Below, one piece after another: positions 17,588-30,641 of a stretch of 40,953 bases of DNA; position 1 is the first letter of the stretch, and each line of letters begins with the position of its first letter. The position numbers were made by a program, and so were the translations under genes. Source of the stretch: Nanobdellota archaeon (GTDB lineage Archaea > Nanobdellota > Nanobdellia > Woesearchaeales > GW2011-AR9); the NCBI GenBank assembly GCA_038044525.1, contig JBBSZV010000001.1:1-40953 (forward strand), read 5' to 3'. The notes under the pieces are model-generated. The model worked only from the letters and a program-made list of their open reading frames with translations, was not told where the DNA came from and made no database searches.

Positions 17588-18466
17588 TCACTTCTTCAAC
17601 ATCGCAAGAATATTGTTTGCCGCCAGCTGTTCATCTTGCGCATATAGTCCTTGGTCTAAAGAGCTGACGTATTTTTTAAATCGCGATAATTCTTCACGGA
17701 CTTGTTCTTCCAGCACCCCTTCAGGTGTTTTCGCGGATTCTTGGGAAGCAGAAGTATTTTGCGCGCCGCGCCCTGCGGGCGCTTCAGTCGCTTCGCTCCC
17801 ACTACGTACCCCACGCGCACGGTTATGAACGTAGATATCCCGATCAATGGCGTCGAAAATGGAATCGTCACCGAAACTGTAAAGCCAAGAGACCCGCGCA
17901 ATTGCTCCATGGGAAGCGTGCTTTTGCACATATTTTGGATCAAGAACGTAAATTCTGGTTTCATCAATCCTTGCATTTTTCAGCATTTCCATATTCTTGA
18001 CAAAATCATCTCCCTGGCCGAAGACACGTTCTGTGAACGTACGTTCTTCAGCATTCAATGTTTTATATTCCGCGGGAGTGGTTCCGATAGGAAGATAGCT
18101 GAACTCTGCATTGTATACAGATAGACGCAGTTTAGGCAGAGCGATCAGCGTTGTATCGGGAGCGGCAAGAGCCTGTTTAAAATCAGCTTGCGGGACAGGA
18201 TAGTTGCGCCGATTAATTAACTGCTCGAAGGCAGCATCAATATTTTGTAAAACGGGATTGTGAGCTTCTCGGGTCATTGCTAAGGTGGGAGTTTTATTCT
18301 TACCCTTAAGGAAGTATACTTCTCCGTCAGCGGTATAGAACCATTGGTCGCGCAATTTCGGATTATCTATCCGTTCGTTCATCAATTCGTCAGCGTGCAG
18401 CATGGTGCCCGGCTGAAGCTGGCGGTAAGCATCGCGTAAATTTCCGGTGATGGTTTCTAAAGTCAT
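17588..18466 (-). CDS. Operon-embedded unknown protein, family copy 1 (between rpl30 and rpl15)
   Basis: 292 aa. Its C-terminal half (ARVSWLYSFGDD...NRARGVR...GAQNTSASQESAKTPEGVLEE) is homologous to the ORFs at 21470 and 29799. Gaps to its neighbours are 2 nt and 4 nt. Confidence 0.65.
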   Translation of the reverse strand: MTLETITGNLRDAYRQLQPGTMLHADELMNERIDNPKLRDQWFYTADGEVYFLKGKNKTPTLAMTREAHNPVLQNIDAAFEQLINRRNYPVPQADFKQALAAPDTTLIALPKLRLSVYNAEFSYLPIGTTPAEYKTLNAEERTFTERVFGQGDDFVKNMEMLKNARIDETRIYVLDPKYVQKHASHGAIARVSWLYSFGDDSIFDAIDRDIYVHNRARGVRSGSEATEAPAGRGAQNTSASQESAKTPEGVLEEQVREELSRFKKYVSSLDQGLYAQDEQLAANNILAMLKK

Positions 18467-20859: not shown

Positions 20860-21480
20860 TTATTGGCGTTTAGTTATGGTTTTTTCCGCCATTTTCTTTT
20901 GCTGTTCTGCTTCGTTGTTTTCTTCTGCATGATCGTGATTATGGCTGTGATCGTGTTTGGGCTTTTTGTTTTCAGCTTCCTTCTTGGCGCGTTCTTCAGC
21001 TTTCTTTTTCTTTTCTTCTTCCTTTTTGCCGGTTTCTGCTAATTTTTTCTTCCGCAGCTCCTTGCGCTCTTGGAAACATTTATTTATGCTTTCTACCGCT
21101 TTGGCTGCGTCTTTTACGTTCAGCACCGCGATATCTTTTTTTTGCGCAGCTTCTAATAATGATATTTTCTTCTTCTTTCCCACGCCGGCGGCGATTATCG
21201 CCCCTTGAGTTTCCGGATCCATCGCCGAGAGCTCATCCAGGTTATGGACGACCACCATGGCTAACCCGGTGGGATGCAGACCCCGCACTTCTTCCGGCGC
21301 GCCATATCCCGGATTAGGCATAGCCGGCCGGCCGCAATGCATCTGCCTGACCTTGGAATGCCTTCCGTAAGGGTATCTCCAGCGTGATTCTATCCGGGAA
21401 AAGTTTGATTCCCTGACTACGAAAGCAGGCTTGGTCTTCCTCATCTCCTTCCGTACGGATAATAATTCTTTATTTGCCAT
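20860..21480 (-). CDS. rpl32e: 50S ribosomal protein L32e (eL32) with a ~75-aa K/E-rich, His-rich C-terminal tail
   Basis: WRYPYGRHSKVRQ...GYGAPEEVRGLHPTG core; the tail contains KPKHDHSHNHDH. Confidence 0.9.
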   Translation of the reverse strand: MANKELLSVRKEMRKTKPAFVVRESNFSRIESRWRYPYGRHSKVRQMHCGRPAMPNPGYGAPEEVRGLHPTGLAMVVVHNLDELSAMDPETQGAIIAAGVGKKKKISLLEAAQKKDIAVLNVKDAAKAVESINKCFQERKELRKKKLAETGKKEEEKKKKAEERAKKEAENKKPKHDHSHNHDHAEENNEAEQQKKMAEKTITKRQ

Positions 21481-22282
21481 GGTGTAGTTTTATTAAGTTT
21501 AGTATTGCCTGTTGTTTTAATCCGAAGTATTCCGGCTGGTTTTTTGTTCCCATGAAACCGTCAAAAACCGCTAATTCTTCTGCGATTTTTTCTTCCAGCA
21601 CCTCTTCGGATGTTTTTGCTGGTTCTCGGTAAGCAGAAGTATTTTTCGCGCCTTCGGTGCCTACCTCACGCACCAGACGAGCACGGCCGTTGCTGTCGAA
21701 AGGGTCGTTGAGGCAATAGAGGTAGAACCTATCTGTATAGGTGCCGAGCAAGACCGTCCTTTCAGGTATTAATTTTCTTTTACTTGCTGATGATGTCCAG
21801 AGGTAAGGTCGTTTTCCACTGAATCTATGCAGTACTTCCACCACTTCATCAACTTTCTGATGTCCAAAAGCGATCTGCACTACTTTTCGCCAGTCGTTGT
21901 CCTTCACCAAATTATCTAAATAGCCATTTCCTTCCGGAATAGTACACGAAATAACAGAAGGTTCATCTCCGAAATGAGTAATGGTATTCTTTTTGTGACA
22001 ATAACCAAACTGTGTGCCGGTGCATAAATAATCTTCCTGCAAATCTTTTAACAGGCCTGCTGAAGCAGGGTGGTTTTCTTTCTGCAAATGACGTATAAAG
22101 GAAAAATATTCCGGCAAAGTAGGAAGACGTTTTCCTGAACAGGCCAAATAACTCATCCACTCTGATTGGTTTTGAATAAGATAATTTCCATCTGCATCGC
22201 GAACGGCTTCGCCGTCCAAGGCCAGATTACCTAATACGATTGGCTCAACAGTTCTTTGCTCCAATGAAGTTGCAGGTTCCAT
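21470..22282 (-). CDS. Operon-embedded unknown protein, family copy 2 (between rpl6 and rpl32e)
   Basis: ATG 22282 is favoured: it lies 2 nt after the rpl6 stop and aligns with copy 3 (MEPATSLEQRTVEPIVL). The alternative ATG at 22318 overlaps rpl6. The 3' end overlaps the rpl32e start by 11 nt. Confidence 0.65.
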   Translation of the reverse strand: MEPATSLEQRTVEPIVLGNLALDGEAVRDADGNYLIQNQSEWMSYLACSGKRLPTLPEYFSFIRHLQKENHPASAGLLKDLQEDYLCTGTQFGYCHKKNTITHFGDEPSVISCTIPEGNGYLDNLVKDNDWRKVVQIAFGHQKVDEVVEVLHRFSGKRPYLWTSSASKRKLIPERTVLLGTYTDRFYLYCLNDPFDSNGRARLVREVGTEGAKNTSAYREPAKTSEEVLEEKIAEELAVFDGFMGTKNQPEYFGLKQQAILNLIKLHHGK

Positions 22283-22284
22283 TC

Positions 22285-22824
22285 TCACGCGCTCCCCGCC
22301 TTTTCTACGATATAACATCCGTCCTGGAAAATCCTGCGGTCCCGGTTGGTTATCCGGCAGGCGCTTTCTATCCGCGCCGCAGTCTGGCCGGTCGCTTCCA
22401 CGTCGGAACCGGACACCAATATTTCTTCGCCGTTCACTTTAACTTCCACTCCCGGCATGATCTTGATTTTCCGCGGCACTGCTTCTCCAAGGAAATTCTT
22501 GATAACTACTTCTTTTCCGGAAACGGAAACGTTCATGGGAAAGTGGCCTGAACATATTTTTAACTTATATTGATACGGCTCTTTCACGCCTTGGATCATG
22601 TTTCTTATGTGCGACCTGAAAGAACCCACCATGGTCTTTTCGCGTTTGGTCGCTTTCTGCGCGTAAAGGATGATTTTATTATTTTCCAGGGAAATGGTAA
22701 CTTTGGGATGGAGAAAATTCTTTTTCACTTCTCCTTTATGCCCTTTTATTTTTAAGATGCTCTTATCTAAGTTGGCAGTGATGCCGGTTCCCAGTTCAAT
22801 TTCCTTCCGGAGCTCTTCTTTCAT
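22285..22824 (-). CDS. rpl6: 50S ribosomal protein L6 (uL6)
   Basis: Two-domain L6 pattern: ILKIKGHKGEVKKNF...VSGKEVVIKNFLGE. Confidence 0.9.
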   Translation of the reverse strand: MKEELRKEIELGTGITANLDKSILKIKGHKGEVKKNFLHPKVTISLENNKIILYAQKATKREKTMVGSFRSHIRNMIQGVKEPYQYKLKICSGHFPMNVSVSGKEVVIKNFLGEAVPRKIKIMPGVEVKVNGEEILVSGSDVEATGQTAARIESACRITNRDRRIFQDGCYIVEKAGSA

Positions 22825-25193: not shown

Positions 25194-25595
25194 TTATATT
25201 ACCATGCTGGCTACTTTCGCCACCGCCGGCCATCGCTCTGCGACTTCCTTGGCGATAGGCCCCTTGAAAATAGTCCCCTTGGGATTTCCTTTATCGTCTT
25301 TCAATACTACCGCGGCATTATCTTCGAACTTTATCCTGGTGCCGTCCGGCCTGCGGTATTCTTTTCTTTGCCTTACGATAACTGCATACACTACTGTTTT
25401 TCTCATTTCCAGTTTCCCTTTCTTTACTGAAGCGACGACCAGATCGCCCACTCCGGCGGAAGCTACTCTTCCTTTGACGGTCTTTTGGCCTACTACGCAA
25501 AATATCTTCAACAGTTTAGCGCCGGAGTTGTCACAGACATGGACGCGTGCTTCTAAAGGAAGCCCCTTTGTTACATTGCTTTTAAGCGCTTTCAT
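25194..25595 (-). CDS. rpl14: 50S ribosomal protein L14 (uL14)
   Basis: VCDNSGAKLLKIFCVVG...AVIVRQRKEYRRPDGT. Confidence 0.93.
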   Translation of the reverse strand: MKALKSNVTKGLPLEARVHVCDNSGAKLLKIFCVVGQKTVKGRVASAGVGDLVVASVKKGKLEMRKTVVYAVIVRQRKEYRRPDGTRIKFEDNAAVVLKDDKGNPKGTIFKGPIAKEVAERWPAVAKVASMVI

Positions 25596-25608
25596 TTTTG
25601 GTTTTTAC

Positions 25609-26145
25609 CTATAGATAAAAATACATTTTATCCGGTTGTTTTTCTTCCTCTTTGTTTTCTTCTTCTTTCCTTTTAAACTGCAAGCTTACCTTCTCCAGAA
25701 AATAAACCAGACCCAGCAGCCCCAAACTACTTAAATTGCCGATTGCGAAAGTCCCGGCATCACGCTTGGCATACTGAACTTTTTGTTCTAACTTGGTTTT
25801 TGATGGTAGTACTAATGTATCATATTTTTGTTGTGAAAGTTCTAATTCTTTTTCAAGACCTGCGTGTTCAGTTGTTACTTTCATGCACCTTTGTAAGCCA
25901 GCATCATTGAGATAAACCCCTCTTTCGTGCGTGCAAAAGTCGTACTCCGATTTAAGAGAATCTATTTTGCTTGCAATACCGCTTATTTCTTGTTTAATCG
26001 GTTCTGCAACCTCTTGCAGCATCTCCAGCTGAGATTTGTATGTACCTGCAGAGCCCGCATTTGCAGAGCAACCAAAGTAAGTTACGACGGCTCCTGCAAC
26101 AGCAGTAATTTTCATTCCGGTTCCTATTTTATGTATCAGACTCAT
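25609..26145 (-). CDS. Operon-embedded small membrane/coiled-coil protein (178 aa), paralog of the 26142 ORF
   Basis: N-terminus MSLIHKIGTGMKITAVAGAVVTYFGC, a coiled-coil middle and a C-terminal TM LSSLGLLGLVYFL. ATGA overlap upstream; ends 13 nt before rpl14. Confidence 0.6.
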   Translation of the reverse strand: MSLIHKIGTGMKITAVAGAVVTYFGCSANAGSAGTYKSQLEMLQEVAEPIKQEISGIASKIDSLKSEYDFCTHERGVYLNDAGLQRCMKVTTEHAGLEKELELSQQKYDTLVLPSKTKLEQKVQYAKRDAGTFAIGNLSSLGLLGLVYFLEKVSLQFKRKEEENKEEEKQPDKMYFYL

Positions 26146-26450
26146 TCTTCCCGCCCCCGTTGCGAAAGATAATTTCCTAAACCTAACAGGCAGATCGAAC
26201 CTAAAATGCCGGTGGTCGCGTATAATTGCCAGTTATGATAATCTATACTATATATTTTCAGCTCATCCAATTTTTTATTGATGGCATCTCTTTCTGTTTT
26301 AATTGAAGTTCCGAATTCCTCCAGCACTTTTATTTGCGCGGCGATATCTTCCAGATTTTGTTTCGCATCAATGCAGGTAGAAAGAGACCCGGCTAAACCG
26401 ACTATACTAACAACTTTCATTCCAGTTCCTATTTTGCTTTTCAAACTCAT
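26142..26450 (-). CDS. Operon-embedded small membrane/coiled-coil protein (102 aa)
   Basis: N-terminus MSLKSKIGTGMKVVSIVGLAGSLSTC, a coiled coil and a C-terminal TM GILGSICLLGLGNYL. ATGA overlap with the rps17 stop. Confidence 0.6.
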   Translation of the reverse strand: MSLKSKIGTGMKVVSIVGLAGSLSTCIDAKQNLEDIAAQIKVLEEFGTSIKTERDAINKKLDELKIYSIDYHNWQLYATTGILGSICLLGLGNYLSQRGREE

Positions 26451-26878
26451 TCTTCTTCACCTGCTTCTGCAGCAGCCTTCTTCTTTGCGATTTTCTTTCC
26501 CGGCTCTTCCGCGCCGAATACTTGCTCGACTTTTCCTTCTTTGAGGATTTGGATTATGACATGATGTTTAGTCTTGCTTAACGGCCGGGTTCTGGCCACT
26601 AACACCGACTGCCCGACTTGAGCATCCAGGCAAGGCGGATTATGGACGCGTAATCTTGATCTTCGCAATTCATAACGCTCATACTTCTGGACGTAATGCG
26701 GCCTGAACCATTCGATGGTCGCAGACTTGTTGGTGTCTCTCTTGACTACCTTCCCGGTAAGCAATTCTTTTTTCACCACTAAACCGCCGGTAAAAGGGCA
26801 GTTCTTATCGTAGTACTGACTATCATAAGCCCGCTCAGGAGCGGGAATTCCCAACACTTCTTTCCTTGTATTTGCCAT
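26447..26878 (-). CDS. rps17: 30S ribosomal protein S17 (uS17)
   Basis: CPFTGGLVVKKELLTGKVVK...RLRVHNPPC...LVARTRPLSKTKHHVI. Confidence 0.92.
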   Translation of the reverse strand: MANTRKEVLGIPAPERAYDSQYYDKNCPFTGGLVVKKELLTGKVVKRDTNKSATIEWFRPHYVQKYERYELRRSRLRVHNPPCLDAQVGQSVLVARTRPLSKTKHHVIIQILKEGKVEQVFGAEEPGKKIAKKKAAAEAGEEE

Positions 26879-29798: not shown

Positions 29799-30641
29799 TT
29801 ATTTTAATTTCTCCATCATTCTTTTAAATTCTTCCCATGAATACGCAGACATATACCGTTCGTCTGCCGTCCGTTGTAAAACATCTCCGGTAACTGGAGC
29901 TTCTTGGGGAACGATCTGGACGAATGAATTCCATAACGGCTCTGCCACTAACGGCTTGGCGATCATCAATATCTCGTCACGGGTGCGTTGTCGAACCGCA
30001 GGCATTTCCAGAGAAAGGTTTTCGATTCCGCGCGTTGGTGCTTCCCTGCTCGCTTCGCCCGCACCACGCACCCCGCGAGCACGGTCGTAGCTGTAGATAG
30101 GGCTGCTGTAGCAATCGAGGCTGAACCTATCTGTACCGCTACTGAGCCAGACCGCCCTTTCTGGAAATGCTTTTCTGCTTTCCGCTGATGGTGTCCAGAT
30201 GAAAGGTCGTTTTCCACTTGCGCTCTGAATCGTACTGATTGTTTCTAACGCATCGTACTGGAATGTCTCCTCTTCCAATGCTCTCTTCCAGGCAGGATTT
30301 TTCACTAAAACATCAAGATAACCATCACCGATTGGAAGATTGCTTTTATCATAATCTATTTTTGTGCTGGTGCACAAAGCATATTCCAGTAAATCTTGTA
30401 ATATTCCTGTTAAATGGGGATCATTTTCTTCATGTAATTGTTTTATTGCCGCAACATACTCCCCCACTGTAGGAAGGCGTTTTCCAAAAGGAGCAAGATA
30501 CCTTTCCCACCCTTGTTTAGAATCAACGCGATAACTTCCATTTGGATCACGGATTGCTTCCCCGTCCAACAGCAAGCCGTGGTCTAACACGATCGGCTCG
30601 ACAGTTCTGGTTTCTGATGTTTGCAGTGCTTCCATCTTCAT
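29799..30641 (-). CDS. Operon-embedded unknown protein, family copy 3 (between rpl2 and rps19)
   Basis: 280 aa with an ATGA overlap with the rpl2 stop. Shares RTVEPIVL, LDGEAIRD, GKRLPTVGEY, SGKRPFIWTPSA, PERAVWLSSGTDRF and DRARGVR with copy 2. Confidence 0.65.
   Translation of the reverse strand: MKMEALQTSETRTVEPIVLDHGLLLDGEAIRDPNGSYRVDSKQGWERYLAPFGKRLPTVGEYVAAIKQLHEENDPHLTGILQDLLEYALCTSTKIDYDKSNLPIGDGYLDVLVKNPAWKRALEEETFQYDALETISTIQSASGKRPFIWTPSAESRKAFPERAVWLSSGTDRFSLDCYSSPIYSYDRARGVRGAGEASREAPTRGIENLSLEMPAVRQRTRDEILMIAKPLVAEPLWNSFVQIVPQEAPVTGDVLQRTADERYMSAYSWEEFKRMMEKLK

What the first reader, a model, noticed from the sequence alone, without database searches (positions are those of the whole stretch)
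25609..26450. Two paralogous small membrane/coiled-coil genes chained between rps17 and rpl14
In archaeal clusters rps17 is normally followed directly by rpl14. Here a 102-aa ORF and a 178-aa ORF are inserted on the same strand. They are linked by ATGA overlaps (26447-26450 with the rps17 stop, and 26142-26145 with each other) and end 13 nt before rpl14.

The two are paralogs and share:
- near-identical N-termini, MSL[KI][SH]KIGTGMK[VI];
- a hydrophobic segment ending in Cys;
- a coiled-coil stretch (I..Q[IL]..L[EQ]E...IK.E...I..K[IL]D.LK);
- a C-terminal TM helix.

Membrane-anchored proteins co-expressed stoichiometrically with r-proteins are unexpected. Together with the ~280-aa family, they make four foreign insertion points in one operon. 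They may be part of the same unknown system, for example tethering ribosomes or partner proteins to the membrane.
Basis: partly seen in the sequence, partly recalled or inferred. Interest (0 to 1): 0.65.

Follow-up and report, generated by a model that had tools for sequence, protein, structure and literature searches.

The report
Membrane hairpin genes in ribosomal operon
Two related small membrane-protein genes really are wedged between the ribosomal genes S17 and L14 of a tiny DPANN-type archaeon; they belong to an undescribed, fast-evolving family, almost confined to one archaeal family, that repeatedly lodges inside ribosomal-protein operons and whose function is unknown.

Summary
A 102-aa ORF (A) and a 178-aa ORF (B) lie between rps17 and rpl14, with ATGA overlaps and a 13-nt spacer as described. 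They are paralogs (BLASTP E=7e-10). Both are under purifying selection that is weaker than on r-proteins (dN/dS 0.2-0.6 against 0.01-0.06 for L14). AlphaFold2 with a 27-sequence alignment (pLDDT 91.5) models B as one long antiparallel helical hairpin. Two Gly-rich membrane helices form its base and a conserved Cys...Cys core sits at its tip. No curated family, solved fold or paper matches. An exhaustive profile search of 1.84 billion proteins found 9 relatives. Genome searches place the family almost entirely in one GTDB family. Most members lie in r-protein operons, at six different junctions: S17|L14, S3|L29, S24e|S27ae, after S27ae, after L31e and after SecY. Some members lie elsewhere. The proposed link to the ~280-aa family fails a co-occurrence test. 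A ribosome-tether role is disfavoured by topology and by poor codon adaptation, but it is not excluded. Best reading: lineage-specific envelope hairpin proteins riding on constitutive operons.

The parts
26142..26450 (-). Gene A, 102 aa: short paralog (N-terminal motif + TM1, ~50-aa helical ectodomain without the Cys core, TM2, tail QRGREE)
   Evidence: ORF. Orthologs of 101-102 aa in G010, L047 and L046 at 52-83% identity, dN/dS 0.35-0.56.
25609..26145 (-). Gene B, 178 aa: long paralog, predicted as a single antiparallel helical hairpin anchored by TM1 and TM2
   Evidence: ORF. Orthologs of 188-196 aa at 41-54% identity, dN/dS 0.20-0.63. AF2 with family alignment: pLDDT 91.5, helices 3-73 and 81-169.
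26447..26450 (-). ATGA overlap: S17 stop / gene A start. In relatives without the insert this ATG is the L14 start.
   Evidence: Sequence. The S17/L14 ATGA overlap occurs in 17 relatives, including all 10 insert-free genomes of this genus.
26142..26145 (-). ATGA overlap: gene A stop / gene B start. The junction sequence GAAGAATGAGT[TC]TGA repeats the S17/A junction.
   Evidence: Sequence.
25596..25608 (-). 13-nt spacer between the gene B stop (TAG) and the rpl14 ATG
   Evidence: Sequence.
26373..26432 (-). Gene A TM1 (residues 7-26, IGTGMKVVSIVGLAGSLSTC), Gly-rich, ends in Cys26
   Evidence: Hydropathy, family alignment.
26163..26222 (-). Gene A TM2 (residues 77-96, YATTGILGSICLLGLGNYLS)
   Evidence: Hydropathy, charge distribution.
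26068..26127 (-). Gene B TM1 (residues 7-26, IGTGMKITAVAGAVVTYFGC), with the lipobox-like YFGC-S
   Evidence: Hydropathy. Sub-threshold Lpp/OprI match over residues 11-67.
25816..25935 (-). Gene B conserved ectodomain core (residues 71-110: C71...C87...H94(Y)..LExE) around the hairpin tip (turn 74-80)
   Evidence: Most conserved non-TM columns of the 27-sequence alignment. Turn position from AF2. Lowest dN/dS within B in the two G000 comparisons.
25690..25749 (-). Gene B TM2 (residues 133-152), followed by the conserved KRKEEE and a K/E-rich cytoplasmic tail (25612-25689)
   Evidence: Hydropathy. Near-invariant Arg after TM2 in the family.
26447..26878 (-). rps17 (uS17), upstream neighbour
   Evidence: Pfam Ribosomal_S17, 6.9e-18.
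25194..25595 (-). rpl14 (uL14), downstream neighbour
   Evidence: Pfam Ribosomal_L14, 2.8e-36.

Best explanation
A and B are tandem paralogs of an undescribed, taxonomically narrow family of small two-pass membrane proteins. SHOWN: they are real, selected coding genes. They sit at a junction that is empty in most relatives, and relatives of the family lie mostly inside r-protein operons. INFERRED FROM MODEL AND SEQUENCE: the short basic N-terminus and the RRK[DE]EE tail stay in the cytoplasm. Two Gly-rich helices (TM1, TM2) pack side by side in the membrane. The helices continue outward as a ~50-residue-per-arm antiparallel coiled-coil hairpin whose tip carries a conserved Cys...Cys...Y..LExE core, probably disulfide-stapled. 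A is a shortened copy that lost this core. INFERRED FUNCTION: they are abundant envelope or surface components, probably homo- or hetero-oligomers formed through the glycine-rich helices. They hitch-hike on the constitutive transcription and termination-reinitiation coupling of r-protein operons in a regulator-poor, reduced genome. Their exposed arms diverge fast. The specific molecular role (envelope spacer, host or virus contact) is not determined.
For: Coding and selection: intact orthologous pairs in four lineages, dN/dS 0.20-0.63, significantly below 1 in 11 of 12 pairs. Paralogy. Structure: AF2 pLDDT 91.5, pTM 0.64, helices 3-73 and 81-169. Foldseek returns only generic antiparallel coiled-coil hairpins. 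Topology: K/R on both short termini. Conserved Cys pair in 21 of 27 members. Narrow range: 3-4 hits among 5.8e9 proteins, 9 among 1.84e9 representatives, 17 of 114 genomes of the family at E<=0.01, and essentially one convincing hit outside it among 401 genomes of the order. Operon association at six junctions. Fast evolution of the exposed arms: 26-50% identity against 65-74% for the Cys core. B has dS 1.24 against 0.26 and 0.51 for the flanking S17 and L14. Copy-number variation and tandem arrays: L062, L056, L080.
Against: Topology rests on hydropathy and the positive-inside rule only; no dedicated predictor was available. No region shows dN/dS above 1, so diversifying selection is not demonstrated. 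The most conserved short motifs include cytoplasm-facing ones (N-terminal K-[IV]-G-x-G and R-[RK]-[EK]-[ED]-E), which could mean a cytoplasmic partner. Low GC3 (0.34-0.37 against a genome median of 0.49) does not suggest very high translation demand. The enrichment in r-protein operons goes beyond what 'needs a promoter' obviously predicts.
Confidence: 0.55

Rival explanations
1. The family is functionally tied to translation or secretion. It would be a membrane docking or accessory factor for ribosomes or the SecYEG translocon, so its genes are kept in r-protein operons for co-regulation with ribosome synthesis.
For: Members occupy six different r-protein-operon junctions, including directly after SecY in G026. 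The conserved motifs face the cytoplasm. K/E-rich tails resemble the tails appended to this organism's r-proteins. Established knowledge: archaeal r-protein operons already carry SecY, and the secE-nusG-rpl11 linkage is known.
Against: Gene A has only a ~6-residue N-terminus and a 6-residue tail in the cytoplasm. Several members lie outside r-protein operons: G012 L054, G095 L056, G131 L057, G073 L061, G398 L080. The family is absent from most genomes of the same genus and order, so it is dispensable. Codon usage is unlike r-protein genes. It evolves too fast for a partner of the conserved ribosome.
Confidence: 0.15
2. They are nearly neutral passenger ORFs. Young genes arose by junction duplication or de novo, and they are tolerated because ATGA coupling preserves downstream r-protein translation. 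They would have little or no cellular function.
For: Patchy presence needs about 7 losses or 4-5 gains within two genera. Losses restore the exact S17/L14 ATGA overlap. Constraint is relaxed (dN/dS up to 0.6). GC3 is low. G012 has an unrelated 103-aa ORF at the same site. The N-terminus resembles that of L14, a possible partial duplication (post hoc).
Against: dN/dS is significantly below 1 in 11 of 12 pairs. The anatomy and the Cys...Cys...Y core are conserved across at least 8 genera at 15-25% identity. AF2 gives a high-confidence fold from the family alignment.
Confidence: 0.12
3. They are small membrane-active toxin-like or holin-like proteins, or a selfish addiction module, protected from silencing by sitting in an essential operon.
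For: Small, Gly-zipper-like two-pass membrane proteins that occur in pairs and arrays. A weak PHROG 'hemolysin' hit for A (E=0.0035).
Against: No significant PADLOC or PHROG match. There are no mobile-element or phage genes nearby. Constitutive co-translation with r-proteins would be lethal for a toxin without an antidote. The ectodomain is long and conserved, unlike holins.
Confidence: 0.05
4. One reading: A and B form one system with the ~280-aa 'RARGVR' family inserted elsewhere in the operon.
For: Both are inserted in the same operon in G000 and G010, and both have low GC3.
Against: G133 (99% complete, 3 members) and G008 have no ~280-aa homolog. G002, G004, G006, G013 and G015 have the 280-aa family and no detected member. 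That family is in 14 of the 16 genomes of the genus whatever the state of the S17|L14 junction.
Confidence: 0.03

Closest known systems
Non-ribosomal passenger genes of archaeal r-protein operons (SecY, SUI1/aIF1, RNase P Rpp29, all present in this window; Adk and the DUF106 membrane protein from my own knowledge)
   Same: Co-transcribed and translationally coupled with r-protein genes, and includes membrane proteins.
   Different: Those passengers are ancient, near-universal and slowly evolving. This family is confined to essentially one GTDB family, is patchy within a genus, evolves 5-10 times faster than its neighbours and occupies several alternative junctions.
Braun lipoprotein Lpp/OprI alanine-zipper family (NF040598)
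   Same: N-terminal hydrophobic segment ending in G-C-S followed directly by a long helix. It is the best sub-threshold NCBIfam hit for B.
   Different: 16.6 bits against a cutoff of 43. The organism is an archaeon without an outer membrane or murein. The protein has a C-terminal TM helix. The Cys is not conserved across the family.
Unimolecular spanins (phage T1 gp11 type; from my own knowledge)
   Same: N-terminal lipobox-like anchor plus a C-terminal TM helix in one small protein.
   Different: No phage or lysis-cassette context, no PHROG match, an all-helical ectodomain, and a single-membrane host.
E. coli YqjD/ElaB/YgaM (DUF883), ribosome-associated tail-anchored membrane proteins (from my own knowledge)
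   Same: Small, with a C-terminal TM anchor, and conceptually linked to ribosomes at the membrane.
   Different: No Pfam DUF883 match. Here an N-terminal TM puts the main domain outside the cell.
Alpha-helical hairpins of periplasmic adaptor proteins (HlyD/LipC) and the V-ATPase peripheral-stalk subunit
   Same: A long antiparallel coiled-coil hairpin, and these are among the top Foldseek matches.
   Different: Matches are not significant (E >= 0.025) and reflect the generic fold only. Domain context is different.

Membership tests
Any Pfam / NCBIfam / PADLOC / PHROGs family | Score at or above the curated threshold, or a significant E-value | tested here: not met
   Pfam: none for A, and only BLOC1_2 at 15.3 bits against 33.4 for B. 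NCBIfam best 16.6 against 43. PADLOC and PHROGs: nothing below E=0.003.
Lpp/OprI alanine-zipper lipoprotein | Lipobox [LVI][ASTVI][GAS]C at the end of the signal peptide | tested here: inconclusive
   By inspection, B has YFGC and A has LSTC, and neither fits strictly. Some relatives fit (AASC, VASC, AYGC) and others have no Cys at that position. No SPII predictor was available.
Lpp/OprI alanine-zipper lipoprotein | Family HMM score at or above 43 bits, and a free C-terminal Lys for murein attachment | tested here: not met
   16.6 bits. The C-terminus is a TM helix plus an acidic/basic tail.
Unimolecular spanin | Encoded in a phage lysis cassette, with a PHROG spanin match | tested here: not met
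   The neighbours are r-protein genes. No PHROG spanin hit.
YqjD/ElaB/YgaM (DUF883) ribosome-associated membrane proteins | DUF883 domain, cytoplasmic N-terminal domain, single C-terminal TM | tested here: not met
   No Pfam hit. Two hydrophobic helices with basic flanks place the middle domain outside.
Archaeal class III (type IV pilin-like) signal peptide proteins | [KR]-[GA] cleavage site immediately before an uninterrupted ~20-residue hydrophobic stretch | tested here: not met
   By inspection, K6-I-G-T-G-M-K12 does not fit (K lies at -3 of either Gly). A C-terminal TM is also present. No FlaFind-type tool was run.
One system with the ~280-aa 'RARGVR' family | Co-occurrence across genomes | tested here: not met
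   G133 and G008 have members but no 280-aa homolog. G002, G004, G006, G013 and G015 have the 280-aa family and no detected member.
The new family itself (working definition) | N-terminal M-[KS]-[LI]-x-x-K-[IV]-G-x-G-[LM] entering a Gly-rich TM1; helical ectodomain; Gly-rich TM2; R-[RK]-[EK]-[ED]-E | tested here: met
   A and B match the family profile at 1e-24 to 1e-59. Alignments. A lacks the Cys...Cys core.

The most novel reading that the evidence does not exclude
A lineage-specific membrane-hairpin family is genetically wired into ribosomal-protein operons, at six or more junctions across several genera, because its dosage must track ribosome output. It could be a new archaeal ribosome/translocon-membrane accessory. 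Alternatively it could be a growth-coupled envelope or host-contact protein of an episymbiotic DPANN archaeon. The gene may have been born at the S17|L14 junction from a partial duplication of the L14 5' end.
Probability: 0.15. Interest if true: 0.8.

Novelty: new variant of a known kind. Interest (0 to 1): 0.5.

Why it matters
The archaeal r-protein superoperon is among the most conserved gene arrangements known. In one DPANN-type family it repeatedly accepts, duplicates and sheds a lineage-specific membrane-protein gene without disturbing translational coupling. That gives a natural system for studying how new genes are born or lodged in essential operons. It also points to a candidate abundant envelope protein in organisms whose surface biology and host contact are almost unknown. 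If the operon link turns out to be functional and not merely opportunistic, it would reveal an unrecognised connection between ribosome production and the membrane in reduced archaea.

Tried and rejected
- Curated libraries. Pfam, NCBIfam, PADLOC and PHROGs gave nothing significant.
- Fold comparison. Foldseek against the PDB with both AF2 models gave only generic coiled-coil hairpins, best E 0.025-0.037.
- P0002 (145 aa). It looked like an A-B fusion, but it comes from a contig whose genes are fragmented, so it is rejected as a frameshift artefact.
- G012 103-aa ORF at the same junction. It does not match the family profile, so it is left unassigned.
- Family tree of 27 members. It is too saturated to decide whether junctions were colonised once or repeatedly.
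- Region-wise dN/dS. No segment lies clearly above 1.
- Literature. Two full-text searches found nothing relevant.
- Class III pilin-signal reading of the N-terminus. Rejected by inspection.
- Earlier scan notes. They offered only first-reader notes on the ~280-aa family and on r-protein tails.

Full report
**1. Observation**

The minus strand of the window carries an archaeal r-protein superoperon: L4, L23, L2, S19, L22, S3, L29, SUI1, Rpp29, S17..., L14, L24, S4e, L5, S14, S8, L6, L32e, L19e, L18, S5, L30, L15, SecY. Between S17 (26447-26878) and L14 (25194-25595) lie a 102-aa ORF (A, 26142-26450) and a 178-aa ORF (B, 25609-26145). The ATGA overlaps S17/A and A/B and the 13-nt spacer before L14 read directly from the sequence.

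A and B are paralogs. BLASTP gives E=7e-10 with 35% identity over residues 1-65. A multiple alignment extends the match to the C-terminal helix and tail.

**2. The junction is normally empty**

In 26 of 30 related genomes S17 adjoins L14 with no ORF between. In 17 of them the S17 stop and the L14 start overlap as ATGA, and this includes all 10 insert-free genomes of this genus. The other 9 have spacers of -14 to +91 nt. In genomes that carry the insert, the first inserted gene starts at that same ATGA.

**3. Real genes**

Four lineages carry an intact A-B pair: G000, its sister species G010, and the metagenome contigs L047 and L046. Pairwise dN/dS is 0.35-0.56 for A and 0.20-0.63 for B. It is significantly below 1 in 11 of 12 pairs. 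L14 gives 0.01-0.06 in the same genomes.

B is much more diverged between G000 and G010 than its neighbours. It shares 54% amino-acid identity and has dS 1.24. The r-proteins in that comparison share 88-99% identity with dS 0.09-0.69, and the immediate neighbours S17 and L14 have dS 0.26 and 0.51.

**4. Anatomy**

Hydropathy shows two hydrophobic helices per protein. A 27-member alignment and its column statistics define the family by these features:

- An N-terminal M-[KS]-[LI]-x-x-K-[IV]-G-x-G-[LM] that runs straight into a Gly-rich TM1 (residues ~7-26).
- A helical middle domain with a conserved Cys...Cys...Y..LExE core (C71 and C87 in B). The core is present in 21 of 27 members and is deleted in the A type.
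- A Gly-rich TM2.
- A nearly invariant Arg within R-[RK]-[EK]-[ED]-E, followed by a K/E-rich tail of variable length.

AlphaFold2 on B alone gave an all-helical model (pLDDT 72). With the family alignment it gave pLDDT 91.5 and pTM 0.64, with two helices (3-73 and 81-169) joined by a 7-residue turn. This is a single long antiparallel hairpin whose base is TM1+TM2 and whose tip is flanked by the two Cys.

Basic residues on both short termini place the termini in the cytoplasm and the hairpin outside. This is an inference from the positive-inside rule. The Cys at the end of TM1 is lipobox-like in some members but absent from that position in others, so lipidation is possible but does not define the family.

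**5. Distribution**

- Word-indexed searches of 5.8 billion proteins found 3 and 4 hits.
- An exhaustive HMM search of 1.84 billion representatives found 9 proteins, all of this family.
- Whole-genome profile searches found it in 17 of 114 genomes of the same GTDB family at E<=0.01, across 8 of 58 genera.
- Among 401 genomes of the order, essentially one convincing genome outside that family has it (G398).

**6. Context**

Most members lie in r-protein operons, at six different junctions:

| Junction | Genomes or contigs |
|---|---|
| S17\|L14 | G000, G010, G003, G132, G133/L042, L044, L047 |
| S3\|L29 | G133, G132, G129, G014 |
| S24e\|S27ae | G008, G005, and four tandem copies in G001 |
| After S27ae | G000 contig C5 (192-aa distant paralog) |
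| After L31e | G132 |
| After SecY | G026 (weak hit) |

L046 also carries an A-B pair, but that contig ends before any identifiable flanking gene. Members outside r-protein context exist in G012, G095, G131, G073 and G398. By my own rough estimate, r-protein-adjacent junctions are about 5% of all junctions in a genome this size. On that estimate, six of about eleven independent sites is a strong enrichment. The comparison is a hand calculation and not a formal test.

**7. History**

A tree of Rpp29+S17+L14+L24 makes genus g79 (G132 and G133, both with the insert) sister to this genus. It scatters insert-bearing genomes within the genus. This requires about seven precise losses or four to five gains. 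Both are easy by recombination across the highly conserved flanks.

The S17/A and A/B junctions share GAAGAATGAGT[TC]TGA...AAAATAGGAAC[TC]GGAATGAAA, as expected if a tandem duplication carried the junction with it. A and B have GC 0.39 and GC3 0.34-0.37. The neighbouring r-protein genes mostly have GC3 of 0.45-0.60, and the genome median is 0.49.

**8. Mechanism**

The best reading has three parts:

- The family consists of lineage-specific two-pass membrane hairpins with an external coiled-coil stalk. The stalk is probably disulfide-stapled, and the proteins probably oligomerise through their Gly-rich helices.
- They are expressed by riding on constitutive operons through termination-reinitiation coupling.
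- Their exposed arms diverge fast and their copy number changes, as is common for surface proteins.

Coding status, fold class, distribution and context are shown. Topology, disulfide, oligomerisation and surface role are inferred.

The ribosome/translocon rival is kept alive by the operon enrichment and by the conserved cytoplasm-facing motifs. It is weakened by the tiny cytoplasmic portions of A, by the family's dispensability within the genus, by its rapid evolution and by poor codon adaptation. The neutral-passenger rival is weakened by significant purifying selection and by a conserved core across genera.

The proposed link to the ~280-aa family is contradicted. G133 (99% complete) and G008 have members but no ~280-aa homolog. 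G002, G004, G006, G013 and G015 show the reverse pattern.

**9. Comparison with known systems**

Nothing matches in Pfam, NCBIfam, PADLOC or PHROGs. Foldseek against the PDB returns only generic hairpins, best E 0.025. Two literature searches found nothing relevant. Lpp/OprI, u-spanins and YqjD-type proteins share single features but fail their defining tests.

**10. Limits**

No dedicated topology, lipoprotein or multimer predictor was available. The family tree is unresolved.

Noticed in passing
L049:5949-6527 (G000 contig C5, minus strand): A 192-aa distant paralog of the family (profile E=1.5e-4 to 6e-3, and 1e-34 with the enlarged profile). It lies directly after S27ae in an Rpb7-Spt4-S24e-S27ae cluster and has a longer coiled-coil cytoplasmic tail.
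   Followed up: partly
L049:6749-7030 (G000 contig C5, minus strand): A 93-aa ORF between S24e and S27ae with two hydrophobic helices and a K/E-rich tail. It has the same architecture but no significant profile match (E=0.21). It may be a very diverged member.
   Followed up: no
L062 (G001:C164) 166-1905: A tandem array of four family members (146, 139, 99 and 134 aa) packed between S24e and S27ae.
   Followed up: partly
window 17588-18466, 21470-22318, 29799-30641: The ~280-aa family is found in 14 of the 16 genomes of the genus, weakly in G009. Genomes with strong hits carry about 2-7 copies, and some copies have in-frame stops. It is essentially absent outside the genus apart from weak hits in G132, G129, G130 and G051. 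Its GC3 is also low (0.39-0.43).
   Followed up: partly
window 25609-26145 compared with L010:7096-7662: Gene B has dS 1.24 between G000 and G010, while the flanking S17 and L14 have dS 0.26 and 0.51. This suggests allele replacement by recombination or an old polymorphism at this one gene.
   Followed up: no
P0001 (variant of gene B, 99% identical): A near-identical B allele begins MSLKSKIG (the A-type N-terminus) instead of MSLIHKIG. This is possible gene conversion between the 5' ends of A and B.
   Followed up: no
window 25557-25595 compared with 26412-26450: The L14 N-terminus (MKALKSNVTKGLP) resembles the family N-terminus (MSLKSKIGTGMKV / MKISKKVxxGM). A loose pattern fitted after the fact matches only A, B, L14 and one other protein among 4099 candidate starts. 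The family's 5' end may derive from a partial duplication of the L14 start. This is not established.
   Followed up: partly
L014:1989-2300 (G012, minus strand): An unrelated-looking 103-aa ORF with only a C-terminal TM helix occupies the same S17|L14 junction, again with an ATGA overlap on the S17 stop.
   Followed up: partly
L064:1279-1581 and L070:1279-1581 (G130, G131): 100-aa Gly/Ala-rich proteins begin with the same MSLTEKIGTG motif but have a different body. They sit next to an ORF that by eye looks like a TrmB-like regulator (not checked with Pfam). The N-terminal motif may be a lineage-wide membrane-entry module.
   Followed up: no
L069:2007-3396 (G132): The Cbf5/TruB pseudouridine synthase gene downstream of a family member appears to contain an intein (Intein_splicing 33.5 bits, just under the 35.8 cutoff).
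   Followed up: no
L011 (ENA contig ERZ1286166 contig_1322): A 41.7-kb contig of a close relative has many fragmented genes (for example L3 split in two). This suggests an error-prone long-read assembly, and its gene calls (such as P0002) are unreliable.
   Followed up: partly
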